The notes under the pieces were generated by a model. It did no database searches and had not been told where the DNA came from. It worked only from the letters and a program-made list of their open reading frames with translations. Position numbers and translations under genes: made by a program. This document shows positions 7,486 through 60,104 of a stretch of DNA of 64,000 nucleotides, piece by piece; positions within the stretch are counted from its first letter, which is position 1; every line of letters begins with the position of its first letter. The stretch comes from Terracidiphilus sp. Its GTDB lineage: Bacteria; Acidobacteriota; Terriglobia; Terriglobales; Acidobacteriaceae. Where the stretch lies: NCBI GenBank assembly GCA_049520855.1, contig JBEKPI010000001.1, positions 9,625 through 73,624 of the forward strand, read 5' to 3'.

Positions 7486-7782
7486 TCAGACGCTGTAGGC
7501 GCCGATGCGTGTTTCGCGCGCGGTGAGCGAGTCGCAGGCGCGATCGAGGGTTTCGTATTCCTGGTCGTGGTCCTTGCGGAATGCGCGGAAAGCCTCTTCG
7601 CTGGCCCAGCGGTCGATGGTGAGGTAGTTGCATGGGATGTAGGCGTTGCGCAGCAACTCCGTACCCAGGTAGTCGGGCGAGGCGCCGAACAGTTTGGCCC
7701 AGGCGCCCCCGGGCGCATAGGCGGCCTCAAAGCCGGCAACCTTCTCCTCGGCAATCTCAAACTGCCATACAACGACGAACAT
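7486..7782 (-). CDS. Antibiotic biosynthesis monooxygenase (ABM) domain protein
   Basis: MFVVVWQFEI...FEAAY...YLGTELL...YLTIDRWASEEAF; start reassigned to ATG 7782 (98 aa). Confidence 0.75.
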   Translation of the reverse strand: MFVVVWQFEIAEEKVAGFEAAYAPGGAWAKLFGASPDYLGTELLRNAYIPCNYLTIDRWASEEAFRAFRKDHDQEYETLDRACDSLTARETRIGAYSV

Positions 7783-7994
7783 AGGCGGCACCAATCTCTT
7801 CCTTATGGTAGCGCAGAGGGGATTGCAGTGGCGAAAGTGGGCGTAATCCCACAACAAGAATCGAGATACAAGGCTCCAACGGCCGCGCTGGCCAAGAATT
7901 TGACAGTCGGCTGGAATGACGGCATGGGCGAGGATGGTGGCGTGTCCGGGGAGGCTCTTCCGGACGGCAAAAAAGGAACTTCCTTGGCAACTCG

Positions 7995-8012
7995 TGTGCA
8001 ACGCATTGCACA
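7995..8012. promoter_or_regulatory. Perfect palindrome, candidate bEBP upstream activating sequence
   Basis: TGTGCAA-CGCA-TTGCACA, 48 bp upstream of a -24/-12 promoter; an IHF-like TAACATGTTGAAT (8033-8045, one mismatch) lies between them. Confidence 0.6.
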
Positions 8013-8060
8013 TAAGTCTACTTATCGATATTTAACATGTTGAATCTAAAAGCCTTGCTT

Positions 8061-8076
8061 TGGTATGGAACGTGCA
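8061..8076 (+). promoter_or_regulatory. sigma54 (-24/-12) promoter of the PEP-CTERM gene
   Basis: TGGTATGGAACGTGCA: GG-N10-GC with correct spacing. Confidence 0.6.
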
Positions 8077-8304
8077 ACTGTCGATACATGTTGAATTGGA
8101 GCGCCGTGGTCGGCGGTTCTGGGCATTTTTCCCCAATCGTGCTCTTAATCCTACCGTCGCTCTAAGGGGAAACAATGGTTTCGCAGTATGCGTGCGGAGA
8201 TGTTCCAGCACACTACCTGTGCAAGGCAGCGCGGGTTTTGGGTGGTCAGCCGCAAGAGGTTTAAGCAGGACAGATGCCCGCGAGGGTGAAATTTTGGAGG
8301 AACC

Positions 8305-8961
8305 ATGAAGAAACTCGGATTTGCTTTACTCGCATTGGCGGCTGCTCTTGCAACAGCTCCAGCCGCAATGGCGACTGGCGGGGTGCCGATTTATGTCGAC
8401 ATTTGGGGCACTAGTACTGCCAACCCCAACGGAACCAGCGGCGTCGGCATCGTTTCCGGCGGCGGCGTTCTCACGGGTACCTTGGTCGGCGGCTCATATG
8501 AGATCACCGGCGGTACGTTTACGATTGACGGCATGGCCGCAGACTTAATCCCCTACGCAGGCGGAGTCTACCCGGCGCCAGTTCCTTCCCCCGGTGGTGG
8601 TGGGTTTACTTACGACGACACGCTTAGTCTGACATCGCCGTATGTTGACGCTGCGGGCGCACTGCTGTTCTCGATTCCCAGTATGCCGAATACGCAAGCA
8701 GCGCTCTTTTTCTGCTCCAATGTCAGTGGCAACTGCCTTGCCGGCGGCGGCGGCAACGACCTCCTGGAATTCTACAACACATCAACTGAGCTTTACACAC
8801 CCCTCTATGTTGGAGACCCCCCAATCACTGGCTACGACATCAACATGAGCGCCTCGCTGACCCCGGAGCCGTCCTCGTGGCTGTTGATGGGCACAGGGCT
8901 GCTCTTCCTGGTTGGTTTTCTTTATCGGAAGGCGAAGCCCGGATTCAATCAAGCGGCTTGA
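8305..8961 (+). CDS. PEP-CTERM sorting-domain surface protein
   Basis: Signal peptide MKKLGFALLALAAALA; Gly/Thr/Ser-rich body; C-terminal TPEPSSWLLMGTGLLFLVGFLYRKAK; GGAGG Shine-Dalgarno. Confidence 0.92.
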   Translation: MKKLGFALLALAAALATAPAAMATGGVPIYVDIWGTSTANPNGTSGVGIVSGGGVLTGTLVGGSYEITGGTFTIDGMAADLIPYAGGVYPAPVPSPGGGGFTYDDTLSLTSPYVDAAGALLFSIPSMPNTQAALFFCSNVSGNCLAGGGGNDLLEFYNTSTELYTPLYVGDPPITGYDINMSASLTPEPSSWLLMGTGLLFLVGFLYRKAKPGFNQAA

Positions 8962-26367: not shown

Positions 26368-28701
26368 CTAACCGAGTCCTTGCAGAGCAGTCCGCGCGTT
26401 CTTTGCATCCGGCGAGTCGGGCGCCAGAGAAATGGCCTTCTTCAAATGAGTTGCGGCATTGACCTTATCCCCCAGTTTGCCGAACACCATTCCCAGGTGA
26501 TACTCCATAGCAGAGCTGTTCGGATCGGTCTTGACCGCGTCTTCCAGAAGATCGCGGGCAAATCCGTAAGTTCCCTTGTAATAGTAAGCCCACGCCAGGG
26601 TGTCCGCGGTGATCGGTGAAGCCGGCATGGCCTTCCGCGCAGTCTGGGCCAGCGTCAAAGCCACATCAACGTTTTCGCCATTCTGAAGCATCATATAGGC
26701 AAGATTGTTGGCTGCAATGGGCTGCGCCGGCTGGATTTGAAGAGCCTTCTTGTAGTAGTCCTCAGCCTTCTGCTTATCGCCAACCGACTCCTCGAGGGTT
26801 CCGAGAATGGCAAAGGCCGTGGCACTGGCGGGATGATCCTTGGACCACAACTGCCATGCGGCGATTGCACTTGCGGCCTGTCCGCGCTGCACCTGAATCT
26901 GCGCGTAGATGGCAACCGCCTCGCCGTCGTCGGGGTTCATCTCTATGGCTTTCTGCGCGGCGCCGGCCGCCTGATCGAAGTTCTTGCTTCGGGCCTGCAA
27001 CTGAGCCAGCATGTCGTAAAATCCGCTGTTCTTCGGACTCTTGGCGATTTGCGCGTTCAGGCGATCCAAGGCCTGGGCCGGTTGCTTGATTGAGAGATCA
27101 TAGCCAATCAGTTCGCGCATGGCGCCAATCGAATTGGGGTCATATTGCAGAGCCTGCTCCAGCAGCGACGTGCCTTCAGGGTATTTCTTTTGCGCGTAGC
27201 GAAGTTGGCCGAGCATCTGATAAGCCTGCGAGCTTGGCGGCGTGGCGCCGATTGCAGTCTTCAGGTCGGCCTCCGCTTTGTCCTGTTCGTTACGCGACAA
27301 CTCCACTGCAGCGCGCCATACATAACCGCTGGGGTAACGAGGCGCGGCGGCAATTGTCTTGTCCGCCACATCGGACAGCAACGTCATATTGCCATGCTGG
27401 CTTGCCATGCGCGCAAGCTCCTCCTCCGCTTCCAATCCGGGCGGATTGAGTTGCGCCGCCTGACGAAGACTCGTTTCGGCCAGACCGCTATCGCCCTTGG
27501 CGAGCGCGGCCTTGCCCAGCCAAAATTGGATGAAAGCGTCCTTCGGGGCATCGTTGGCCGCACCCCGAAGGGCATTGATCGCATCGTCAGGCTTGCCGTT
27601 GTTGAGCAAAACAATTCCGTTCAGCACGGCGACCTGGGGATCCTTGCTATTCTTCTTCATCAGCTCGGAGACAACGCTTTGGGCGGTCCCATAATCCTTG
27701 ACCTGAAGAAGAACACGGACGTATCCCTCCCGCACAGACAGATTCTTGGGATACTGCTGAGAAAGTCTTGCAAACTCCGCCTTGGCCTTGTCGATCTGCC
27801 CCGAGCTATCGTAGTAGTCCGCCAGCAGCCGCACTCCCCGAGGATCGTCCGCGAGATCGTTTGAAGCCTGGCGAAGCACTTCCTCAGCCCTTGCCTGATT
27901 GCCTTGCCTCAAAACAACCTGAGCAAGAGTCTCCCTGGCGCTCAGATTCTTTCGATCCGTAGCGACAGCACTCCAGCATATCTGCTCGGCATCCTGCAAA
28001 CGGCCGCTCTTGATATAGAAAGCGGCGAGCAACAGCTTGGCGTTCACGGATTTTGGCTCGAGTGCGACCGACTTCTTCAATTCGCTCTCAACCATAGAAC
28101 TATTCGCCGGATCGCCCATTTCAAGCAATGCAAGAGTCTCGTGAAGATCCGCCTTGTCGGGGGCGAGTTCCAGCGCGCGATGAATCTCAGTCAGGGCCAG
28201 ATCCTGTTGTCCCCGCCTGGCCGCAATGCGCGAAAGCAACGAGTGAATATCGGCGTTGTTAGGCTGTGCCGCCAATACCGTGGCGGCCTGCGCCTGCGCC
28301 TCGTCGATCTTGCCCCCGGCAAGGAGCAAGTTTCCCAGATCGGTCCGCGCTTTGTAGTTCTCCGGCTGCAGGTACACCGTTCGTTGCAGTTCGCCGTAAG
28401 CGGCGCTCATCGCACCCATATGGAGATAAGTCTGCGACAGGGCGTAATGCGCATCGGCAAAGTTCTTGTCAATCTTCAAGGCGTTGGAAAACTGAATGGC
28501 AGCTTCCCTGTCCTTGCCAAGAGCGCTATACTTCTGGCCGCTTTCCAGATATTTATGCTTTCGGACGTTTGGATCGCGGAAGCATCCGGACAATATGGAA
28601 AGCGACAAAAAGAGAGTAACCACTGCAAGAGCAGCGCGGCCGTTCCGCGATCTCCTACTGCCATCGAAGCCGGATTGAAATGCCTTGAATCTGCTTTCCA
28701 T
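26368..28701 (-). CDS. TPR-repeat lipoprotein (PrsT-like, PEP-CTERM system)
   Basis: Lipobox LSGC after a hydrophobic stretch; many TPR units; C-terminal AANNLAY, ADTLAWAYY, YHLGM. Confidence 0.8.
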   Translation of the reverse strand: MESRFKAFQSGFDGSRRSRNGRAALAVVTLFLSLSILSGCFRDPNVRKHKYLESGQKYSALGKDREAAIQFSNALKIDKNFADAHYALSQTYLHMGAMSAAYGELQRTVYLQPENYKARTDLGNLLLAGGKIDEAQAQAATVLAAQPNNADIHSLLSRIAARRGQQDLALTEIHRALELAPDKADLHETLALLEMGDPANSSMVESELKKSVALEPKSVNAKLLLAAFYIKSGRLQDAEQICWSAVATDRKNLSARETLAQVVLRQGNQARAEEVLRQASNDLADDPRGVRLLADYYDSSGQIDKAKAEFARLSQQYPKNLSVREGYVRVLLQVKDYGTAQSVVSELMKKNSKDPQVAVLNGIVLLNNGKPDDAINALRGAANDAPKDAFIQFWLGKAALAKGDSGLAETSLRQAAQLNPPGLEAEEELARMASQHGNMTLLSDVADKTIAAAPRYPSGYVWRAAVELSRNEQDKAEADLKTAIGATPPSSQAYQMLGQLRYAQKKYPEGTSLLEQALQYDPNSIGAMRELIGYDLSIKQPAQALDRLNAQIAKSPKNSGFYDMLAQLQARSKNFDQAAGAAQKAIEMNPDDGEAVAIYAQIQVQRGQAASAIAAWQLWSKDHPASATAFAILGTLEESVGDKQKAEDYYKKALQIQPAQPIAANNLAYMMLQNGENVDVALTLAQTARKAMPASPITADTLAWAYYYKGTYGFARDLLEDAVKTDPNSSAMEYHLGMVFGKLGDKVNAATHLKKAISLAPDSPDAKNARTALQGLG

Positions 28702-28793
28702 CGTCGTCCATCCTTTCAGCTTGTCACTCGAGCGGCTACCATTTGAAGCCGCTGGCTTAGCCACGCCGCCGTTCCCTGCTCCATTCATGGCGC

Positions 28794-29435
28794 TCAGTCA
28801 GGGACAAATCGCGGCAGCAAGGGCGCAAGTTGCCCGGTGAATGTCTCGGCGCGTTTTCTAGCGGTCTCCACGTCATCGCTTGAAGAGATCGGCGTAATCA
28901 CCCGGACAAGCGCCGCATCCGTTCGATTCAGCCGAATTGCATCAGCGACCATGTATATCTTTGCCATATATTCGTTTGCCACGCTACGCCCGTGCGCCTG
29001 GTACCAGTAGATAACGAACTGCCTCGCATCGCCGTTAGCAATAATGTATTCTCCGACACGGTGGGGCCTGCCATTTACGTCAATCAGATTGACGTATTTA
29101 GAAGACTCAAAGACCCAACCGGCTCCTGGCAAGCAATGCTTAGGAGAATGAATGGTTTGGCCGGTCCTCTGGGTGGGAAAATAGGCGATGAACAGACTGA
29201 TCGGCAATGCCTGTGAGCCTTGGGTATAAATCCGCGAAAGAAAGTCTCCAGCCCCAAGAACATCAAGGGTCTGCTGGTCGAGTTGCTGATCGCTTCCAAT
29301 CCGTCCCGCTATCTCGCTCGGAAACTGCGACAAGGCCTCGCTTGGGGGATTCCGATCGGCATTGGGGCGCGAATGAAGCAGGATCACTGTTCCGGCAAGC
29401 AGCAGGACCGAAGCCCAAAAGCGAAGGTTCTTCAT
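28794..29435 (-). CDS. epsI: EpsI family exosortase-associated protein
   Basis: IHSPKHCLPGAGW, YWYQAHGR, DAALVRV; ATGA overlap with the exosortase. Confidence 0.88.
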   Translation of the reverse strand: MKNLRFWASVLLLAGTVILLHSRPNADRNPPSEALSQFPSEIAGRIGSDQQLDQQTLDVLGAGDFLSRIYTQGSQALPISLFIAYFPTQRTGQTIHSPKHCLPGAGWVFESSKYVNLIDVNGRPHRVGEYIIANGDARQFVIYWYQAHGRSVANEYMAKIYMVADAIRLNRTDAALVRVITPISSSDDVETARKRAETFTGQLAPLLPRFVPD

Positions 29436-30319
29436 GTCTGCCGCCTTTTGACCGGGAATAAACCCATTGTGCGGTGGACGAGATAAAGGCACCCTAGAGA
29501 AACCAAAAAGATGACCCAACCGGAGAACTCATGAAAAAAGCCCAGGGCTTTGTCTGGATCCCAGTACTGGACGCACAATCCGGTGCCGAGAATACGCACC
29601 GCGTTGGCTGCAATCGCGATCGGAATGCTGGCCAGAACGAGCAAGATTCTCCGCAAGACGGACTTTTCCATGAAGTACCCATAAAAGACCGACAGCGTGA
29701 ACAGGCTCATCAAGGAGCGGATGCCGCTGCAGGCCTCTGCCACCTCCAGCTTCATCAAGGGAAGCTGGATGACATTGCCATCCCGCAGAACCGGCACGCC
29801 GAAGAGAGGAAGCAGGTCGCTGGCCAGCTTTGAAGCCAGGATCTGCAGCGGAAAGGTTATCTGGTTAAAGATTATTTCCGGAAGCGGAATCGCCAGCAAC
29901 AAGACCGCCAGGGCGAAGCGCAACTCCTTCAGCAACTGCCATCCGCCGAAGCAAAGCACCAGGCCGGCCAGCAGGATGAGCAGAGAGACACGGGAGAGAA
30001 AGAGCTCGGATCCGTAGACCCCAAGGAGGAGGACGACAAGCGCGAAGGCCATAACGGCAATTCCGCTCCAGGCAGGGGCGATGATCGTCCCGAGAAGGAT
30101 GCTTTTCTTATCCCACACCAAATACGCGGCAAACAGGGGCACCAGGAAGCCGTGAGAGTAATCGGGTATCTGCCACCAGTCGGTAGCCAGTTTCCCCAGC
30201 ACCTGATAATAAACCGCCGCCACCAGCAGGCAGATCGTTGCCGAACCCAATAGAAACTGAGCGTTGGATAAGGGCCAGGAGCCTTGGGGCGCCGCAGAAG
30301 TCTGTATGTCTTGAGCCAT
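29432..30319 (-). CDS. Exosortase (EpsH/XrtA family)
   Basis: DYSHGFLVP, EVAEACSGIRS (catalytic Cys), ANAVRI (Arg), FHEFSGW (His). Confidence 0.93.
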   Translation of the reverse strand: MAQDIQTSAAPQGSWPLSNAQFLLGSATICLLVAAVYYQVLGKLATDWWQIPDYSHGFLVPLFAAYLVWDKKSILLGTIIAPAWSGIAVMAFALVVLLLGVYGSELFLSRVSLLILLAGLVLCFGGWQLLKELRFALAVLLLAIPLPEIIFNQITFPLQILASKLASDLLPLFGVPVLRDGNVIQLPLMKLEVAEACSGIRSLMSLFTLSVFYGYFMEKSVLRRILLVLASIPIAIAANAVRILGTGLCVQYWDPDKALGFFHEFSGWVIFLVSLGCLYLVHRTMGLFPVKRRQT

Positions 30320-30369: not shown

Positions 30370-30385
30370 AGCAATCGGAGTGCCG
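30370..30385 (-). promoter_or_regulatory. sigma54 promoter of the exosortase-epsI-TPR operon
   Basis: Minus strand CGGCACTCCGATTGCT, near consensus, 50 bp upstream of the start codon. Confidence 0.75.
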
Positions 30386-30434
30386 AAAGTGAAAGAATTC
30401 GATTCAGGGGAACTCCCCACGCATCTCCTTTCGT

Positions 30435-30476
30435 TGGGAAACCAACTTCCGGTGGTAGTGGAAAACGCTTTCCACT
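30435..30476. promoter_or_regulatory. Tandem GGAA-N6-TTCC palindromes, candidate activator sites
   Basis: GGAAACCAACTTCC (30437-30450) and AGTGGAAA-ACGC-TTTCCACT (30457-30476), centres 23 bp apart. Confidence 0.5.
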
Positions 30477-30613
30477 TTTCAGGACATTCGATGGCATACT
30501 TTTGCCCAATGGAAGGGAACATATCTGCTTTTCCCTTATCATCTCCCGTAGAGAAACGTCCAAAGGTGCCTATCTTCTACAGATAGCCGCCTTCTAGATC
30601 AGTCCCCCCGGTT

Positions 30614-30629
30614 TGGAACCTGCATTGCT
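30614..30629 (+). promoter_or_regulatory. sigma54 promoter of the rightward EPS export operon
   Basis: TGGAACCTGCATTGCT, 26 bp before ATG 30656. Confidence 0.7.
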
Positions 30630-30655
30630 ATGGAAGGGTGGTACCCTGGCCCCTT

Positions 30656-31573
30656 ATGGGAAGCATAGCAACCATCCACAACGCGAAACGGCAGGCCAAA
30701 CAGAACCCCCCTATTGAGGCGAGGCTGCAGCGTGCGATTTTGCGGATAGCCGAGAGCGAATGTCCGGTCTTGATCTTGGGCGAACATGGCGCCGGGAAGC
30801 GATTCGTTGCCGGACAAATCCATGCACAGTCGTCTCTGTCCCGCTGCGAGTTCAAGGAGATCTGTTGCAGCGATGTCGACGCACAGGCACTACAGGCCGC
30901 TCTTTCTACCCATGGAACCGTCTATCTGGTTGAAATCACCGATCTTAGCCTTTTCATGCAAGAATTCCTCCTCAACACATACTTTCGCTCGGATCAGCCG
31001 CAAACCTGCCGTCTCCTTTGTGGTTCGAGCCGCGAACTTCTGGAGGAAGTCAAGTCGTGGCGGATGAGAGAAGATTTCTTCTACTTTGTCTCAGCCGTTA
31101 CGCTTCGGATTCCCCCACTACGGTATCGGAAGTCCGAGATTCTCTCCATAGCAGATGAGCTTTTGACCCGGTACTCCAAGCAGTTCGACCGCCCCAAGCC
31201 GGTGCTTTGCAAGGAAAGCATCGAACACCTGATGGAGCACGCATGGCCCGGCAATCTGTCGGAACTTGAGACCGCGATCAAGACGTTCGTCGCCATTGGG
31301 GACCAGGCGATTTCTCTCGCCGCGATTAAAGCGGCGTCGCCATCGGGGAGGTCAAATGGGAGCCGCCGGCATATGCTCTTGAAGGAAGCCACGCGGGCCT
31401 CATCGATCCAGATCGAACGCCAGCTGATCTCCGAGGTTCTGGTTTCGACCGGCGGCAACCGGAAACGCGCCGCTGTCGACCTTGGCATCAGCTACAAGGC
31501 CCTGCTGTACAAACTGAAGCAGATCGAAACGGAAAACCAATCCGTGTCCTCGAAGAATGGAGTCGCAGTATGA
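30656..31573 (+). CDS. Degenerate sigma54-activator-like protein (AAA+ remnant plus Fis-type HTH)
   Basis: GEHGAGK Walker A kept; GAFTGA loop absent; Walker B YLVE; EDFFYFVS; WPGNLSEL; HTH NRKRAAVDLGISYKALLYKL. Confidence 0.8.
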   Translation: MGSIATIHNAKRQAKQNPPIEARLQRAILRIAESECPVLILGEHGAGKRFVAGQIHAQSSLSRCEFKEICCSDVDAQALQAALSTHGTVYLVEITDLSLFMQEFLLNTYFRSDQPQTCRLLCGSSRELLEEVKSWRMREDFFYFVSAVTLRIPPLRYRKSEILSIADELLTRYSKQFDRPKPVLCKESIEHLMEHAWPGNLSELETAIKTFVAIGDQAISLAAIKAASPSGRSNGSRRHMLLKEATRASSIQIERQLISEVLVSTGGNRKRAAVDLGISYKALLYKLKQIETENQSVSSKNGVAV

Positions 31574-55922: not shown

Positions 55923-57044
55923 TCAATGCGGCTTTCTCCCGGTCAACGCCGGCTTGATCTCTTTGGGTTTCGTTGCGGCCTGCATATGGATATGCCTTGA
56001 GGCCGAATTCCTTGCCTTGTGCGGTGTTTCCAATGCTCCGCCGGCTTGCGAGTCTTGCAGCTTATAGAGCAGCGACCTATAGCTGATGTTGAGCCATTTG
56101 GCAGTCTTCCGGCGGCTCCAGCTATTCGCCTCCAGCACCTTCAGTATGATCTGCCGCTCCAAATCCTGCGTGGCGGCCTTGGTAATCTCCTTCAGCGAAA
56201 CGGGGCTGGCCAGATCGATTTTGGTATTCAGCCCGGCCGAACTCGTCCGGACAGTCGAAACCAGATCCGCCGCCAAGGACTCTTCGCTGCCGATCAGAAT
56301 ATAGCTGCGAATCATGTTTTCCAGTTGCCGTATGTTTCCAGGCCAGTCGTACCGCTGCATCAAGCGCGTCACCTCGCGCGAAAGCGGCTTCGGAGCGCGG
56401 TGAAATGCCTTCGCATGTCGATCAATGAAGTAGTCGATCAACATGGGCAGATCAACGGCCCGCTGGCGCAAGGGCGGCAATTCGATGGTCACGGCGTTGA
56501 TACGGAAAAAGAAATCCAGCCGAAAGCCTCCATCCTCGGCTTGCTGCCGCAGGTTGTCGCTGGCCGCGCTGACCAGCCGGGTATTGACCTTTCTCGATTC
56601 CTGTCCGCCGACACGCATAAAGCTGCCATCCTGAAGCATCTGCAGCAGCTTGGCCTGAACCGACATATCCAGGTCGCCAATCTCATCGAGAAACAGGGTC
56701 CCCATGTGCGCCAGTTCGACACGGCCGCGCTTGGTTGCATAGGCTCCGGTAAAAGCCCCTTTTTCATAACCGAAGAGTTCCGACTCGATCAGCGAGTGCG
56801 GAATCGCGGGGCATGCCACCTTGACCCATGCGCCCTTCGAGCGGTTGGAGTAAGCATGAAGCAGTTTTGCAAAAATCTCCTTGCCCGTTCCGCTCTCGCC
56901 CTGTAGCAGCACCGGAACCGTCGTCGCGGCAACCCGCTCCAGCTTTTCCCGAGCAACGGCCATCAGGGCTGTTTGGCCGAAGACCACCTCCATCGGAGGA
57001 AGATCGCGGGTATCGGCTGATTCGGTTGCGCGCGCCAGAGGCAT
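55923..57044 (-). CDS. sigma54 activator lacking an N-terminal sensory domain
   Basis: GESGTGKE, ESELFGYEKGAFTGA, FLDEIG, FFRIN, WPGNIRQL, HTH ISYRSLLYK; ATG 57044 preferred (track start 57074). Confidence 0.88.
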   Translation of the reverse strand: MPLARATESADTRDLPPMEVVFGQTALMAVAREKLERVAATTVPVLLQGESGTGKEIFAKLLHAYSNRSKGAWVKVACPAIPHSLIESELFGYEKGAFTGAYATKRGRVELAHMGTLFLDEIGDLDMSVQAKLLQMLQDGSFMRVGGQESRKVNTRLVSAASDNLRQQAEDGGFRLDFFFRINAVTIELPPLRQRAVDLPMLIDYFIDRHAKAFHRAPKPLSREVTRLMQRYDWPGNIRQLENMIRSYILIGSEESLAADLVSTVRTSSAGLNTKIDLASPVSLKEITKAATQDLERQIILKVLEANSWSRRKTAKWLNISYRSLLYKLQDSQAGGALETPHKARNSASRHIHMQAATKPKEIKPALTGRKPH

Positions 57045-57083
57045 AGTCAATCCAAAATTCAAGATTCGATTCACATTCCTGTA

Positions 57084-57099
57084 GGCAACTTTCCGGCCA
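57084..57099 (-). promoter_or_regulatory. Possible sigma54 promoter of the sensor-less bEBP
   Basis: Minus strand TGGCCGGAAAGTTGCC, correct GG-N10-GC spacing. Confidence 0.5.
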
Positions 57100-57245
57100 A
57101 ACTCAAACGGTCGGATAGTAACCAGCGTGATATACTTTAGTAACCTTTTTTCTGCTCAATGGTAATCTAGCGCATGGTTTCAGAGCGCTCTCGATCCGCT
57201 TTTGTTCAAGAGTGTGTAATTTTTTGCGCATCATAGCGAATGAAT

Positions 57246-57432: not shown

Positions 57433-58899
57433 ATGGCGAGCATTTCATTGGGAGCGTCAATGAAGACGAAGAGTAAGCGCAGCCTTCTCATTGCAGCTCT
57501 TGACCCAGATACTGCAATCCTCAATTATCTTCACCGCAGTCTTGCCGACCGTTTCAGCGTGAGCCTGTTTACCGAGGCCGCCGATCTGATACGAAGCCTG
57601 AGAGAATCTCAGGCGCCTGACCTGCTCCTGATGGACTGGCACCTTGCCGAGAATGGTTCCGGAGAGAACTCGCTCGGCATGCTGATGAAACTACGCGCTT
57701 CCAACCCAACGCTTCCGATCATTATGCTTGCCTGTTCAGCCGAGTTGAAGGATGTGGTGACGGCAACGCGCTTGGGCGCCACGGACGTGATTCTCAAGCC
57801 TTTTAGAAAGAGCGACATCGATCAGGCTGTTCAGGAGTGCCTCAAGGATGCGGGCAAGCAGTTGGACGACGACGATGAGATCAAAGAGATCCCCCTTGAT
57901 GAGAACACATCGTTTGTCAGAGCCTGCAAGCGCATGAGCGAGATCGAATCCCAGTGCAGGCTTGTGGCGCGCGCCGATATTCCTGTTCTCATTCTTGGAG
58001 AGAGCGGAACGGGCAAGGAAGTTGCGACCTTGTTCATCCACAAGATGTCGGCCCGCAGCCAGCGCAGCTTCATGAAGGTAAATTGCGCGGCGATGCCTGC
58101 CGATCTGCTGGAAAGCGAGCTTTTTGGCTATGAGCCAGGCGCGTTTACCGGAGCGATCAAATCCAAGCCGGGTAAATTTGAGATTTGCAACAATGGCACA
58201 ATCTTCCTGGATGAGATTGGCGAGATGCCGGCCGTATTGCAGGCAAAGCTGCTCCAGGTTCTCCAGGATGGGAGCTTTTCGAGGCTGGGCAGCCGGACCA
58301 GCGTGAAAGTCGATGTCCGGGTGATTGCCGCAACCAATATCGACATCAAGGCGGCTATTGCGCAAAAGACCTTTAGAGAGGATCTTTATTACCGTCTCAA
58401 TGGCTTCACGCTGAAGATGCCCCCGCTGCGCGAGCGCACCGAGGAGATTCCGATCCTGGCCCGCCACTTTATGCGCAAGGTGGCCGCGAAATACGAGCGC
58501 GATCCCCTGACGATTTCGCCAAAGCTGATGAAGGCTCTCAGCAGCTATTTATGGCCCGGCAATCTTCGCGAATTGGAGAATACGATCAAGCGCTACCTCA
58601 TCTTGACCGACGAACAGGCGATCATAGACGAACTGATTCCCCGGCAAAGCGAGGAGTCGACGGTCTCTGGCGTGGAAGACACAAACGGCAACGGAAGTCT
58701 GAAGCATCTCGTCCGAAACTTGAAGGGCGGCGCTGAGTCTGCCGCCATCGCTAGAACGCTGGAGGCTACTGGATGGAACCGCAAGGCAGCGGCAGGCGAC
58801 CTGCAGATAAGCTACAAAGCGTTGTTGTACAAGATCAAACAGTACAACCTCGCTCCGCCGCAGAAGCAATCCAATTCGATCCCGAGGCGCAACGCATGA
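57433..58899 (+). CDS. sigma54-dependent response regulator (REC-AAA+-HTH, NtrC/PrsR-like)
   Basis: LLLMDWHL receiver Asp, LKPF; GESGTGKE, GAFTGA, FLDEIG, FREDLYYRL, WPGNLREL; HTH ISYKALLYK. Confidence 0.92.
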   Translation: MASISLGASMKTKSKRSLLIAALDPDTAILNYLHRSLADRFSVSLFTEAADLIRSLRESQAPDLLLMDWHLAENGSGENSLGMLMKLRASNPTLPIIMLACSAELKDVVTATRLGATDVILKPFRKSDIDQAVQECLKDAGKQLDDDDEIKEIPLDENTSFVRACKRMSEIESQCRLVARADIPVLILGESGTGKEVATLFIHKMSARSQRSFMKVNCAAMPADLLESELFGYEPGAFTGAIKSKPGKFEICNNGTIFLDEIGEMPAVLQAKLLQVLQDGSFSRLGSRTSVKVDVRVIAATNIDIKAAIAQKTFREDLYYRLNGFTLKMPPLRERTEEIPILARHFMRKVAAKYERDPLTISPKLMKALSSYLWPGNLRELENTIKRYLILTDEQAIIDELIPRQSEESTVSGVEDTNGNGSLKHLVRNLKGGAESAAIARTLEATGWNRKAAAGDLQISYKALLYKIKQYNLAPPQKQSNSIPRRNA

Positions 58900-59378
58900 T
58901 TCCACCCGCGGGTGGCCGCAATTCCTCCAAGTCGGAGAAGGTGGTGATCCAGTTCGGCTCGAGGACGGTCAAGGGGTACCTCGACTCTCCGGTTTGGAAC
59001 ACTGTGGAAGAACTGTTGAGCAACGCTCCGCACAGCGCGCCTGAGATCTTCCGGGTTCGCCTTCTCGATTCGGATACAGTCGAGGATATATTAACCAAAG
59101 ATATCAAGGCGGTCTTCTATGTAAACAGCTTTGAGGGAGACCCTCATCATCAGATTCTCAATTTTCATTCCCGCGCGCCCATCGTGCATGGGATCTGGAT
59201 GCGGGTGCAGTTTCTCGATGGCGAAGTCATGGAGGGAATCGTGTGCAACTCCATCCGCTATCTCGTCGATCCAGGCTTCTTCCTGGTGCCCACCGATCCT
59301 GACAGCAATAACAGGCTTATTTACGTGCTGAAGAGTTGGCTTGCCGATCATCGCGTCCTCGGGATGCGCAAACTCTAG
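58896..59378 (+). CDS. Hypothetical protein (DUF6982-like)
   Basis: VQFLDGEVMEG, GFFLVPTDPDSNN; ATGA overlap with the response regulator. Family label is from recall. Confidence 0.65.
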   Translation: MIPPAGGRNSSKSEKVVIQFGSRTVKGYLDSPVWNTVEELLSNAPHSAPEIFRVRLLDSDTVEDILTKDIKAVFYVNSFEGDPHHQILNFHSRAPIVHGIWMRVQFLDGEVMEGIVCNSIRYLVDPGFFLVPTDPDSNNRLIYVLKSWLADHRVLGMRKL

Positions 59379-59719
59379 TCGCAGACAGCCGCGCTCTCCT
59401 CAAACGAATAATGCAGAATCTCCGCGGCTATCCCCGTCAATTGCCCTGACGCCCTCTCCGTGCGAACTACCCTTCCCTCGCATCGAATAAAACAGCCAGT
59501 TGAAAGAGTAATCTCCGGAGGCAATTCGACAACAAACTCAAAATTGCCGCCGAGAGGGGCGTTGTCGGCCAGGTCAAGATAGAAATACACTCCCCGGTTG
59601 CTCAAGTCCCGAGTAAAGCCTGGAATCTCGCTCTGCCCCTTGATCACAGTAAGAGCCGCGTTAATCCCAAAGCGCTGCCCTACTCGCTGGACGCGTTCCG
59701 ATTGCAGGTTGCGAATCAT
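59375..59719 (-). CDS. Stand-alone PilZ-domain (c-di-GMP-binding) protein
   Basis: RVGQR (RxxxR) and DLSNRG (D/NxSxxG); GGAAGGA Shine-Dalgarno before ATG 59719. Confidence 0.85.
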   Translation of the reverse strand: MIRNLQSERVQRVGQRFGINAALTVIKGQSEIPGFTRDLSNRGVYFYLDLADNAPLGGNFEFVVELPPEITLSTGCFIRCEGRVVRTERASGQLTGIAAEILHYSFEESAAVCD

Positions 59720-59927
59720 GAGGTCCTTCCTTGCGAACGAAAACAGCAAATTGCGCAGATTGCAAGATTGTGCCTCCATGGCGACATGAAAGCGCTGCGC
59801 ATTGCCGGCTCCGCGCCCGCACCTCTCAGACTGCTCGGCAAGAGGCGCAGCACCAGCGAAGCTGTGGTACGAAGGTATCGCAAATTCCGGTTACCGCAGT
59901 CCCGCACCTTCGGTACTTATGTGTTAG

Positions 59928-59943
59928 AGCAATCTCAATGCCG
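59928..59943 (-). promoter_or_regulatory. sigma54 promoter of the PilZ gene
   Basis: Minus strand CGGCATTGAGATTGCT; shares CGGCAY-N3-GATTGCT with the exosortase promoter. Confidence 0.7.
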
Positions 59944-59991
59944 AATGAATTGTCTGTAAATGTTGAGGTTACGGGCTCGCCTCGACGGAAC

Positions 59992-60009
59992 TATGCAATC
60001 AATTGCGCA
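59992..60009. promoter_or_regulatory. Candidate bEBP upstream activating sequence
   Basis: TATGCAA-TCAA-TTGCGCA; 13/18 identical (promoter orientation) to 7995-8012 and also 48 bp from its -24 element. Confidence 0.6.
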
Positions 60010-60104
60010 GTATATGGGAATAAACTGGACACTTTTGCTCGCATTAGGACGCTCCGCCATGGGCAGTAGCCTCTGCGATCCGTGCGATGCACTACGATGT
60101 CTTC

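What the first reader, a model, noticed from the sequence alone, without database searches (positions are those of the whole stretch)
7995..8076. Same enhancer-plus-sigma54 architecture, same 48-bp spacing, at two loci 52 kb apart
Seen: TGTGCAA-CGCA-TTGCACA then 48 bp then TGGTAT-N5-GTGCA ahead of the PEP-CTERM gene. TGCGCAA-TTGA-TTGCATA then 48 bp then CGGCAT-N5-TTGCT ahead of the PilZ gene (59928-60009, minus). A looser GAA-N6-TTC site lies 49 bp from the exosortase promoter. Known: sigma54 promoters need a bEBP bound to upstream palindromes. Inferred: one regulon links the PEP-CTERM substrate, its exosortase, EPS export and a c-di-GMP receptor. I do not recognise this motif as a described binding site.
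Basis: partly seen in the sequence, partly recalled or inferred. Interest (0 to 1): 0.8.

Follow-up and report, generated by a model that had tools for sequence, protein, structure and literature searches.

The report
AtoC-type enhancer of PEP-CTERM sigma-54 regulon
An 18-bp palindrome placed about 48 bp upstream of sigma-54 promoters is a real, widely conserved enhancer that switches on cell-surface (PEP-CTERM) protein genes, a c-di-GMP-receptor gene and a regulator gene in peat-soil Acidobacteria. It is an acidobacterial version of a control scheme previously described only in Proteobacteria.

Summary
TRYGCAA-N4-TTGCRYA occurs 5 times in this 3.8-Mb Terracidiphilus MAG, against 0-1 in shuffles. 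Four copies precede PEP-CTERM-type genes and one precedes a PilZ gene. The palindrome + 45-52 bp + GG-N10-GC pattern gives 32 hits in 41 related genomes, against 1 for the reversed control. Most hits precede PEP-CTERM or PilZ genes.

In 60 of 70 species the PilZ orthologue keeps the palindrome 46-49 bp from a YGGCAYTGAGATTGCW promoter. The spacer bases between the half-sites vary freely.

The motif is already described: it equals the ChIP-verified E. coli AtoC sites (TATGCAG-N4-TTGCACA). The general scheme, an enhancer plus sigma-54 promoter before PEP-CTERM genes, was published for Proteobacteria (Haft 2006). Here PrsR and PrsK are absent.

The likely activators are the adjacent bEBP paralogues, which share the recognition helix ISY[KR][AS]LLYK. 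Their intergenic region carries a conserved variant site, and their phylogenetic profile matches that of the motif.

The exosortase and EPS promoters are sigma-54-type but use a different conserved palindrome (GTGGAAA-N4-TTTCCAC), so the "one regulon" claim holds at most as a cascade. Binding and transcription start sites remain untested.

Verdict: real; a new variant of a known kind.

The parts
7995..8012 (.). Class-A enhancer (UAS) palindrome TGTGCAA-CGCA-TTGCACA, site 1
   Evidence: Read. It is one of 5 exact genome matches. The same element precedes PEP-CTERM genes in relatives.
8033..8050 (+). Conserved box TAACATGTTGAATCTAAA between the enhancer and -24. It resembles an IHF site (YAANNNNTTGATW); a bend site is inferred.
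   Evidence: Consensus cgTAAnTnnTTGAATcTaaA in 21 PEP-CTERM-type promoters. The genome has two HU/IHF-family genes below the IHF-alpha cut-off. The function is inferred.
8061..8076 (+). Sigma-54 -24/-12 promoter TGGTAT-GGAAC-GTGCA. The predicted transcription start is near 8086-8088.
   Evidence: rpoN is present. The transcription start is not mapped.
8305..8961 (+). PEP-CTERM protein gene (218 aa, signal peptide, C-terminal TPEPSS...RK)
   Evidence: TIGR02595 hit. The CDS is present at 100% identity in contigs of 4 metatranscriptome runs.
59992..60009 (.). Class-A enhancer palindrome TGCGCAA-TTGA-TTGCATA (read on the minus strand), site 2
   Evidence: It is conserved upstream of PilZ orthologues in 60 of 70 species.
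59928..59943 (-). Sigma-54 promoter CGGCAT-TGAGA-TTGCT. The predicted transcription start is near 59918.
   Evidence: The orthologous consensus is YGGCAYTGAGATTGCW at 46-49 bp from the palindrome.
59375..59779 (-). PilZ-domain gene (probable start ATG 59719; 114 aa)
   Evidence: PF07238 33.6 bits. It is convergent with the bEBP1 orthologue in 70 of 80 species. Part of the CDS is in one metatranscriptome.
57433..58899 (+). bEBP1: receiver + sigma-54 AAA+ (GAFTGA) + Fis-type HTH (QISYKALLYKI). It is the prime candidate activator.
   Evidence: Domains; sequence. It is not PrsR (332 bits, cut-off 502.6). Its phylogenetic profile matches the motif.
57213..57230 (.). Variant class-A palindrome TGTGTAA-TTTT-TTGCGCA between the two divergent bEBP genes
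   Evidence: 1-mismatch hit. TRTG[T/A]AA-N4-TTGCRCA is conserved in 66 of 74 species.
57084..57099 (-). Sigma-54 promoter TGGCCGGAAAGTTGCC of the sensor-less bEBP gene, 113 bp from the variant palindrome
   Evidence: It is conserved at 110-117 bp in 49 of the 61 species that show a sigma-54-like site there.
55923..57074 (-). bEBP2: sensor-less sigma-54 activator (AAA+ with GAFTGA + HTH NISYRSLLYKL). It is a regulon member and a possible second-tier activator.
   Evidence: It is divergent from bEBP1 in about 74 of 80 species.
30638..31573 (+). Degenerate ('dead') bEBP paralogue with the same recognition helix (GISYKALLYKL). It is the first gene of the EPS-export operon.
   Evidence: Translation. 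The Sigma54_activat match is partial and there is no GAFTGA.
30458..30475 (.). Class-B palindrome GTGGAAA-ACGC-TTTCCAC between back-to-back sigma-54 promoters (30385-30370 minus, 30614-30629 plus) of the exosortase and EPS-export operons. It is NOT the class-A motif.
   Evidence: It is the only exact copy in the genome. Sequence and spacing are conserved in relatives.

Best explanation
The 18-bp palindrome T-R-Y-GCAA-N4-TTGC-R-Y-A is the upstream activating sequence (enhancer) of an NtrC/AtoC-family bacterial enhancer-binding protein.

A dimer binds it through a Fis-type HTH whose recognition helix is ISY[KR][AS]LLYK. The most likely binder is the response-regulator bEBP encoded at 57433-58899. 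Its sensor-less paralogue at 55923-57074 and the catalytically dead paralogue at 30638-31573 are co-binders or competitors.

The site is centred about 83 bp upstream of the predicted start. It lies a rigid 46-50 bp from the -24 element, or about 111-121 bp in a second class. A conserved A/T-rich, IHF-like box between the two is inferred to bend the DNA, so that the ATPase can remodel sigma-54 RNA polymerase bound at GG-N10-GC.

The regulon comprises about half of the PEP-CTERM (exosortase-substrate) genes, a small PilZ c-di-GMP receptor and the sensor-less bEBP gene itself. It is the acidobacterial (Terracidiphilus and relatives) counterpart of the proteobacterial PrsK/PrsR 'PEP-CTERM box' regulon, but with an AtoC-like operator and without PrsK or PrsR.

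Shown: the sequence architecture, its enrichment, its conservation, its gene association and its co-occurrence with the bEBP genes. Inferred: who binds, DNA bending, and sigma-54 dependence in vivo.
For: 1. Architecture is exact at both loci.

2. Rarity and gene association in the own genome:
- There are 5 exact palindromes, against 0-1 in shuffles.
- Their downstream genes are 3 recognised PEP-CTERM genes, one Gly-rich secreted gene cut by a contig end, and the PilZ gene. Sites with 1-2 mismatches and 48-50-bp spacing precede two more PEP-CTERM genes and a secreted protein.
- Three of 5 exact sites fall in the roughly 0.14% of the genome that lies within 400 bp upstream of the 13 PEP-CTERM genes.

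3. Relatives:
- The composite pattern gives 32 hits, against 1 in the control, in 41 genomes.
- Of 30 loci, 17 precede PEP-CTERM-like ORFs and 4 precede PilZ orthologues.
- A phylum-wide sample of 400 genomes shows the pattern concentrated in the same genus, family and order, and at control level elsewhere.

4. Phylogenetic footprint:
- 60 of 70 species keep palindrome plus promoter upstream of the PilZ gene at 46-49 bp.
- GCA...TGC is invariant (59-60 of 60) while the N4 spacer varies.

5. Identity of the motif: it matches the ChIP-verified E. coli AtoC sites TATGCAG-N4-TTGCACA and TGCGCAA-N4-cTGCATA, which lie upstream of the atoD sigma-54 promoter.

6. Link to the local bEBPs:
- A conserved variant palindrome lies in their own intergenic region, followed by a conserved sigma-54 promoter for bEBP2.
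- The PilZ target is adjacent in 70 of 80 species.
- In the genus, genuine motif instances occur in 8 of 10 genomes with a bEBP1 orthologue and in 0 of 15 without.
- In another family of the order, bEBPs with NISYK[AS]LL helices sit beside palindrome-bearing PEP-CTERM genes and carry palindromes at their own 5' ends.
- The three paralogues share the ISxx[AS]LxYK signature with AtoC.
- The rival AtoC-like bEBP on contig C3 has an anti-correlated profile.

7. Required components and expression: rpoN is present. The PEP-CTERM and PilZ coding regions occur in peat metatranscriptomes.
Against: - There are no binding, transcription-start or rpoN-dependence data. The RNA contigs cover only coding sequence.
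- Most promoters have a single palindrome, whereas atoD and many NtrC-type promoters use tandem sites to assemble the hexamer.
- Site 1 has an off-consensus promoter (TGGTAT...GTGCA) and a 5' UTR of about 220 nt. That is much longer than the 71-nt mean reported for proteobacterial PEP-CTERM genes.
- Seven of 13 PEP-CTERM genes lack the palindrome.
- Recognition-helix identity to AtoC is only 7-8 of 14, no better than for some other bEBPs.
- Two bEBP1-positive genomes lack a strict composite hit.
- The motif tables are partly biased by the selection thresholds.
- Which of the three paralogues binds cannot be resolved in silico.
Confidence: 0.75

Rival explanations
1. The palindrome is a genuine sigma-54 enhancer but is bound by a different bEBP of the genome. 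One candidate is the most AtoC-like one on contig C3 (12001-13437, helix ISRDALRYKL); another is one of the other 8 full bEBPs. The neighbouring bEBP pair would then be only a target.
For: The C3 protein has the highest AtoC model score (440 bits). By my own alignment of the HTH sequences (the script missed this protein), it also has the highest recognition-helix identity to AtoC (9 of 14). No family model singles out the window's bEBPs.
Against: C3 orthologues occur in only 3 other genomes of the genus (G006, G007, G022), none of which has the motif. They are absent from all 7 motif-positive relatives. No palindrome lies near the C3 gene. The window's bEBP genes carry a conserved palindrome and co-occur with the motif.
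Confidence: 0.12
2. The palindrome is the operator of a non-bEBP dimeric regulator, for example a CRP/FNR-like or other HTH protein acting as co-activator or repressor. The true enhancer of these sigma-54 promoters would then lie elsewhere.
For: The 5-4-5 geometry (TGCAA-N4-TTGCA) is shared by many dimeric HTH proteins; FNR's TTGAT-N4-ATCAA is one example (own knowledge). There is only one site per promoter. Additional conserved blocks exist nearby, such as AAGTGnCCAnnTTCTACCCA upstream of the PilZ palindrome.
Against: The site is tied at a fixed distance to GG-N10-GC promoters in more than 80 promoters. It matches an experimentally defined bEBP site base for base. It co-occurs with, and lies in the promoter region of, bEBP genes sharing the AtoC-like helix.
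Confidence: 0.08
3. This is a chance similarity of two A/T-poor palindromes next to GG-N10-GC strings, with no shared regulation.
For: GG-N10-GC strings are common in a 61% G+C genome; there are dozens of heuristic hits in the window alone. A few composite hits in relatives fall in coding sequence.
Against: Enrichment over shuffles and over the reversed control is strong. The gene association, the rigid spacing and the conservation across at least 60 species all argue against chance.
Confidence: 0.02

Closest known systems
Proteobacterial PEP-CTERM cis-regulatory region and PrsK/PrsR/PrsT system (Haft et al. 2006, PMC1569441). RpoN1-dependent pepA of Aquincola tertiaricarbonis is the experimental example (PMC9850573).
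   Same: - Single-gene PEP-CTERM operons with long upstream regions.
- An upstream activator motif, followed by a spacer and a -24/-12 sigma-54 promoter. The published spacer ranges from 32 to 92 nt (mean 62.8), so 46-50 nt fits.
- A PrsT TPR lipoprotein, exosortase, EpsI and XrtA-type EPS genes in the locus.
   Different: - The phylum is Acidobacteriota; the 2006 paper found the motif only in Proteobacteria.
- No PrsR (best 396 bits, cut-off 502.6) and no PrsK (113 bits, cut-off 300).
- The operator is an AtoC-type 7-4-7 palindrome rather than the 17-nt motif ending in TTTACA. The published logo could not be compared in full.
- The spacing is far more rigid.
- The regulon includes a PilZ gene and a sensor-less bEBP gene.
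- Three bEBP paralogues, one of them dead, replace the PrsK/PrsR pair.
E. coli AtoC enhancer of the atoDAEB sigma-54 promoter (Matta et al. 2007, as cited in PMC3118216; sites listed in its Table 5)
   Same: - The half-sites and spacer length are the same: TATGCAG-AAAT-TTGCACA and TGCGCAA-TTTT-CTGCATA, compared with TGTGCAA-CGCA-TTGCACA and TGCGCAA-TTGA-TTGCATA.
- The site lies upstream of a sigma-54 promoter.
- The binder is an NtrC-family response regulator with a Fis-type HTH carrying ISxxALxYKL.
   Different: - E. coli has two abutting sites, 84 bp from TGGCAC; here there is one site at 46-50 bp.
- The targets are short-chain fatty-acid catabolism genes, not surface proteins.
- The local bEBPs fall far below the AtoC equivalog cut-off (346 and 273 bits, cut-off 714).
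Sensor-less bEBPs (PspF, HrpR/HrpS) and c-di-GMP-linked EPS bEBPs (FleQ, VpsR, BerB)
   Same: A receiver-less but catalytically intact bEBP is encoded in the regulon. Sigma-54 or bEBP control of exopolysaccharide and biofilm genes is coupled to c-di-GMP signalling components (family properties from own knowledge).
   Different: Here the c-di-GMP link is a separate small PilZ protein that is a target of the enhancer, not a nucleotide-binding bEBP. No interaction between PilZ and the bEBPs has been shown.

Membership tests
Sigma-54 (-24/-12) promoter | GG and GC dinucleotides separated by 10 nt within a TGGCAC-N5-TTGCW-like context | tested here: met
   8061-8076 is TGGTATGGAACGTGCA and 59943-59928 is CGGCATTGAGATTGCT. 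The orthologous consensus is YGGCAYTGAGATTGCW.
Sigma-54 (-24/-12) promoter | The organism encodes RpoN and bEBPs | tested here: met
   rpoN on contig C97 scores 367 bits summed (cut-off 277). There are 11 full Sigma54_activat proteins.
Sigma-54 (-24/-12) promoter | Transcription starts about 11-13 nt downstream of the GC and depends on rpoN | not testable with these tools
   Metatranscriptome runs are held only as contigs, and these cover coding sequence but not the 5' UTR.
bEBP upstream activating sequence (NtrC/AtoC type) | Inverted repeat located about 70-150 bp upstream of the sigma-54 start and conserved in orthologous promoters | tested here: met
   The centre lies at about -83. It is conserved in 60 of 70 PilZ promoters, 21 PEP-CTERM promoters and 66 of 74 bEBP2 promoters.
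bEBP upstream activating sequence (NtrC/AtoC type) | Sequence equivalent to an experimentally verified bEBP site | tested here: met
   The E. coli AtoC sites fit TRYGCAn-N4-TTGCRYA with one deviation each.
bEBP upstream activating sequence (NtrC/AtoC type) | Tandem (two or more) dimer sites to nucleate the hexamer, as at atoD and glnAp2 | tested here: not met
   Each promoter has a single palindrome. No second site with up to 2 mismatches lies nearby.
bEBP upstream activating sequence (NtrC/AtoC type) | Physical binding by a cognate bEBP | not testable with these tools
   Only indirect evidence exists: gene adjacency, a palindrome in the regulators' own promoter region, the phylogenetic profile and the shared helix.
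PrsK/PrsR/PrsT PEP-CTERM regulon (Haft 2006) | PrsR equivalog (TIGR02915, cut-off 502.6 bits) | tested here: not met
   The best of 11 bEBPs scores 395.9 bits; the window's bEBP1 scores 332.4. The genome is 91% complete.
PrsK/PrsR/PrsT PEP-CTERM regulon (Haft 2006) | PrsK histidine kinase (TIGR02916, cut-off 300 bits) | tested here: not met
   The best hit scores 113 bits and covers the kinase core only.
PrsK/PrsR/PrsT PEP-CTERM regulon (Haft 2006) | PrsT TPR lipoprotein (TIGR02917, cut-off 312.2 bits) | tested here: met
   Window 26368-28788(-) scores 326.8 bits.
PrsK/PrsR/PrsT PEP-CTERM regulon (Haft 2006) | Motif 1 (17 nt ending in TTTACA), then a spacer, then sigma-54 motif 2, upstream of PEP-CTERM genes | tested here: inconclusive
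   The architecture and spacer range fit. The half-site here is TTGCRYA, with TTTACACA only in the bEBP2-promoter variant. The published logo is not available as text.
AtoSC/atoDAEB system | AtoC equivalog (NF008469, cut-off 714 bits) controlling ato genes | tested here: not met
   The scores are 346 bits (bEBP1) and 273 bits (bEBP2). The targets are PEP-CTERM, PilZ and bEBP genes.

The most novel reading that the evidence does not exclude
Terracidiphilus and related Acidobacteria replaced the PrsK/PrsR switch with a three-paralogue bEBP circuit.

- An orphan response-regulator bEBP binds the AtoC-type class-A enhancer. It turns on PEP-CTERM substrates, a PilZ c-di-GMP receptor and a sensor-less bEBP.
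- The sensor-less bEBP then drives the back-to-back exosortase and EPS-export promoters through the distinct class-B palindrome.
- The first gene of that operon, a catalytically dead paralogue with the same recognition helix, feeds back as an enhancer-occupying decoy.
- PilZ ties the circuit to c-di-GMP.
Probability: 0.25. Interest if true: 0.7.

Novelty: new variant of a known kind. Interest (0 to 1): 0.55.

Why it matters
Acidobacteria are among the most abundant soil and peat bacteria. Their exopolysaccharide and surface-protein matrix shapes soil aggregation and carbon retention, yet almost nothing is known about how they regulate it.

This finding gives four things:
- a defined operator;
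- a promoter architecture with rigid spacing;
- a short list of candidate activators;
- a predicted regulon (PEP-CTERM proteins, a PilZ receptor and a second-tier bEBP), conserved in dozens of uncultured species.

It shows that sigma-54 control of PEP-CTERM genes is not confined to Proteobacteria and does not need PrsK/PrsR. It also suggests that AtoC-like DNA recognition has been re-used for a quite different regulon. All of this can be tested by EMSA, DAP-seq and heterologous reporter assays without genetics in the native host.

Tried and rejected
- Rfam scan of the whole window at gathering thresholds found no family, so the long 5' UTRs are not a known riboswitch.
- MAFFT plus RNAalifold on the first 95 nt of 48 non-redundant PilZ 5' UTRs gave no consensus structure, only sequence patches.
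- Metatranscriptome runs were laid on both loci. Only coding-region contigs were found, with no 5' ends, so the transcription-start test could not be done.
- PrsR and PrsK were sought and not found.
- I first read XGC-N10-GC strings 50 bp after the two C33 palindromes as degenerate -24 elements. I dropped this in favour of proper TGGnCCATCACGTGC promoters 121 bp downstream, conserved in both paralogues.
- The overlapping sigma-54-like string TGGCAACTCGTGTGCA (7985-8000) was considered as an alternative promoter. It is explained by the TGCA of the palindrome and is not seen at the other sites.
- I tested the idea that the palindrome is itself a -12 look-alike. It is rejected because no GG lies 10 nt upstream of its TTGC.
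- The GAA-N6-TTC and GTGGAAA-N4-TTTCCAC sites of the exosortase region were tested as members of the same motif. They are rejected: 7 of 14 specified positions mismatch, and the core half-sites are 6 rather than 4 bp apart.
- The C3 AtoC-like bEBP was tested as the binder. It is disfavoured by its phylogenetic profile.
- A codon-usage gene caller written for the purpose covered only 75% of the genome. It was used only as a rough flag for coding versus intergenic sequence.
Full report
**Observation.** Both loci are exactly as described.

- Site 1 is TGTGCAACGCATTGCACA (7995-8012), then 48 bp, then TGGTATGGAACGTGCA (8061-8076).
- Site 2, on the minus strand, is TGCGCAATTGATTGCATA (60009-59992), then 48 bp, then CGGCATTGAGATTGCT (59943-59928).
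- The gene downstream of site 1 is a PEP-CTERM protein (8305-8961; TIGR02595).
- The gene downstream of site 2 is a PilZ-domain protein (PF07238 33.6 bits; RxxxR and DxSxxG motifs present).
- The ORF 7486-8013(-) that overlaps site 1 has an ABM domain only in residues 78-147. The palindrome is therefore probably intergenic.

**Organism and required components.**

- The window is C1:9625-73624 of a 3.8-Mb, 61% G+C, 306-contig genome.
- Close relatives of its bEBP gene are all Terracidiphilus or Acidobacteriaceae MAGs from peat, bog and palsa.
- The genome encodes RpoN and 11 full sigma-54 activators.
- None of these reaches the PrsR cut-off: the best scores 396 bits against 502.6.
- There is no PrsK: 113 bits against a cut-off of 300.
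- PrsT, exosortase, EpsI and XrtA-type EPS genes are present in the window.

**Is it more than chance?**

- TRYGCAA-N4-TTGCRYA occurs 5 times in the genome, against 0-1 in five shuffles that keep local composition.
- The three sites outside the window are as follows. C175:6549 is followed at 49 bp by TGGACATAAAATTGCT and a Gly-rich secreted gene cut by the contig end. C33:2620 and C33:3767 lie upstream of two tandem PEP-CTERM paralogues, with TGGnCCATCACGTGC promoters 121 bp away.
- Sites with 1-2 mismatches and 48-50-bp spacing precede two more PEP-CTERM genes (C91, C17) and a secreted protein (C35).
- In all, 5 of the 12 PEP-CTERM genes with known upstream sequence carry the element, plus the C175 gene. 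Seven do not.
The strict composite pattern gives 32 hits in 16 of 41 related genomes, against 1 hit for the backwards-read control.
- Of the 30 loci fetched, 17 precede PEP-CTERM-like ORFs, 4 precede PilZ orthologues and 1 precedes the truncated Gly-rich gene. The rest look like chance or are unresolved.
- In an even sample of 400 genomes of the phylum, hits are concentrated in the same genus, family and order. Elsewhere they are at control level.

**Phylogenetic footprints.**

- Eighty loci encoding orthologues of the bEBP at 57433-58899 (67-84% identity) were fetched.
- Seventy have the PilZ gene convergent downstream.
- In 60 of those, a palindrome with up to 3 mismatches lies 46-49 bp from a YGGCAYTGAGATTGCW promoter.
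- GCA...TGC is invariant in 59-60 of 60 while the four spacer bases vary. The selection thresholds contribute to part of this conservation.
- About 74 loci have the sensor-less bEBP gene divergent upstream.
- In 66 of 74 loci the intergenic region holds TRTG[T/A]AA-N4-TTGCRCA. In the window this is 57213-57230.
- Towards the sensor-less bEBP gene, in most of these loci this site is followed at 110-117 bp by a conserved TGGCCGGAAAGTTGCA promoter. In the window this is 57099-57084.
- PEP-CTERM-type promoters from 21 sites share a box, cgTAAnTnnTTGAATcTaaA, between enhancer and -24.
- That box resembles the IHF consensus read on the other strand. Two HU/IHF-family genes are present, both below the IHF-alpha cut-off. 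A bending role is inferred, not shown.

**What the motif is.**

- It matches the in vivo-verified E. coli AtoC sites of atoDAEB, GCTATGCAGAAATTTGCACA and GCTATGCAGAAAATTGCGCA (PMC3118216, Table 5).
- I re-read these in the K-12 sequence as TATGCAGAAATTTGCACA-g-TGCGCAATTTTCTGCATA, 84 bp upstream of TGGCACTCCCCTTGCT.
- AtoC's recognition helix is ISRRALMYKL.
- The three paralogues in the window have ISYKALLYKI (57433-58899: receiver + AAA+ + HTH), ISYRSLLYKL (55923-57074: no receiver, GAFTGA intact) and ISYKALLYKL (30638-31573: degenerate AAA+, no GAFTGA).

**Who binds.** The evidence is indirect but consistent.

- The paralogues' own promoter region carries the site.
- A target gene is adjacent in most species.
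- Within the genus, genuine motif instances occur in 8 of 10 genomes with a bEBP1 orthologue and in none of 15 without. The two hits in bEBP1-less genomes precede neither PEP-CTERM nor PilZ genes.
- In a different family of the order, bEBPs of 44-50% identity with NISYK[AS]LL helices lie next to palindrome-bearing PEP-CTERM genes. They also have palindromes at their own 5' ends.
- The most AtoC-like bEBP elsewhere in the genome (contig C3) is found only in three motif-less congeners and in none of the motif-positive ones.

**The exosortase claim.**

- The exosortase (29432-30319, minus strand) and the EPS-export operon (from 30638) have strong back-to-back sigma-54 promoters: 30385-30370 and 30614-30629.
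- These are conserved in relatives.
- Between them lie GGAA-N6-TTCC (30437-30450) and GTGGAAAACGCTTTCCAC (30458-30475).
- The second palindrome is the only exact copy in the genome. It keeps its distances of 72-73 bp and about 138 bp in relatives.
- No class-A palindrome with up to 2 mismatches occurs there in any of 9 genomes.
- The exosortase and EPS promoters therefore belong to the sigma-54 network but use a different operator.
- The sensor-less bEBP gene is itself a class-A target, so a cascade (bEBP1, then bEBP2, then class-B promoters) is an attractive hypothesis. It is untested.
- In one congener without bEBP1 (G014), both class-B-associated promoters have lost the GG-N10-GC register.

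**Comparison with what is known.**

- Haft et al. 2006 described a 17-nt motif 1, a spacer of mean 62.8 nt (range 32-92) and a sigma-54 motif 2 upstream of 99 of 167 proteobacterial PEP-CTERM genes. The motifs co-occur with PrsK, PrsR and PrsT. The paper states that only Proteobacteria share these motifs.
- RpoN dependence of a PEP-CTERM gene was shown in Aquincola.
- Literature searches found nothing on an acidobacterial counterpart.
- The present system has the same logic but differs in several ways: the phylum, an AtoC-type operator, rigid spacing, no PrsK or PrsR, and a regulon that includes a PilZ gene and a second bEBP.

**Expression.** Coding parts of the PEP-CTERM gene (8410-8849) and the PilZ gene (59495-59643) occur at about 100% identity in contigs of peat and wetland metatranscriptomes. 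This is consistent with transcription in situ. The contigs do not reach the 5' UTRs, so the transcription starts remain unmapped.

**Verdict.** The finding is real and its core inference is right: an enhancer plus sigma-54 promoter shared by a PEP-CTERM substrate gene and a PilZ gene. The motif itself is known (AtoC-type) and the scheme is known from Proteobacteria. Extending the same site to the exosortase and EPS operons is not supported. It is a new variant of a known kind, of moderate to good interest.

Noticed in passing
window 30370-30629: The exosortase and EPS-export operons have back-to-back sigma-54 promoters. Between them lies a unique class-B palindrome, GTGGAAAACGCTTTCCAC (30458-30475), and GGAA-N6-TTCC (30437-30450). 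Sequence and spacing (72 bp and about 138 bp) are conserved in congeners.
   Followed up: partly
window 30638-31573: The first gene of the EPS-export operon is a degenerate bEBP. It has no GAFTGA and only a partial AAA+ match, but it keeps an HTH whose recognition helix matches that of the active regulator (ISYKALLYK). It may act as an enhancer-occupying decoy.
   Followed up: partly
L119 (G014:C2, exosortase/EPS intergenic region): This congener lacks a bEBP1 orthologue but keeps the dead-bEBP gene. Both sigma-54 promoters have decayed: one has lost the 10-nt register and the other reads TTGAA instead of TTGC. This is consistent with loss of the activator.
   Followed up: no
genome contig C33:1790-3800 (outside the window): Two tandem PEP-CTERM paralogues each have an exact class-A palindrome, but 121 bp from a TGGnCCATCACGTGC promoter. 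This is the same long-spacing class as the bEBP2 promoter (110-117 bp).
   Followed up: partly
window 60012-60035 and orthologous loci L034-L109: A conserved block of about 20 nt, AAGTGnCCAnnTTCTACCCA, lies 3-6 nt upstream of the PilZ palindrome in most species. Its function is unknown. It could be a second protein site or the promoter of the divergent gene.
   Followed up: no
window 59720-59920 and 8088-8304: Both genes have long 5' UTRs (about 200 and about 220 nt). The PilZ leaders share sequence patches across species (for example TTAAGTA-CCAAAC and GCGCAA). There is no Rfam hit and no alifold consensus structure.
   Followed up: partly
window 58773-59378: A DUF6982 gene (122 bits) lies between bEBP1 and the PilZ gene. 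As an ORF it overlaps the 3' end of bEBP1, so it is probably co-transcribed with it.
   Followed up: no
window 28794-30319: The exosortase (29432-30319) and EpsI (28794-29519) ORFs overlap by 88 nt in different frames. Together they align to the two halves of the fused XrtD-type model. This could be two genes with a later EpsI start, or a frameshifted fusion.
   Followed up: no
genome contigs C175:6830-7300 and C71:1-219: The Gly-rich secreted gene downstream of the third exact palindrome runs off contig C175. A Gly-rich ORF fragment ending in a PEP-CTERM domain opens contig C71. They may be the two ends of one gene.
   Followed up: no
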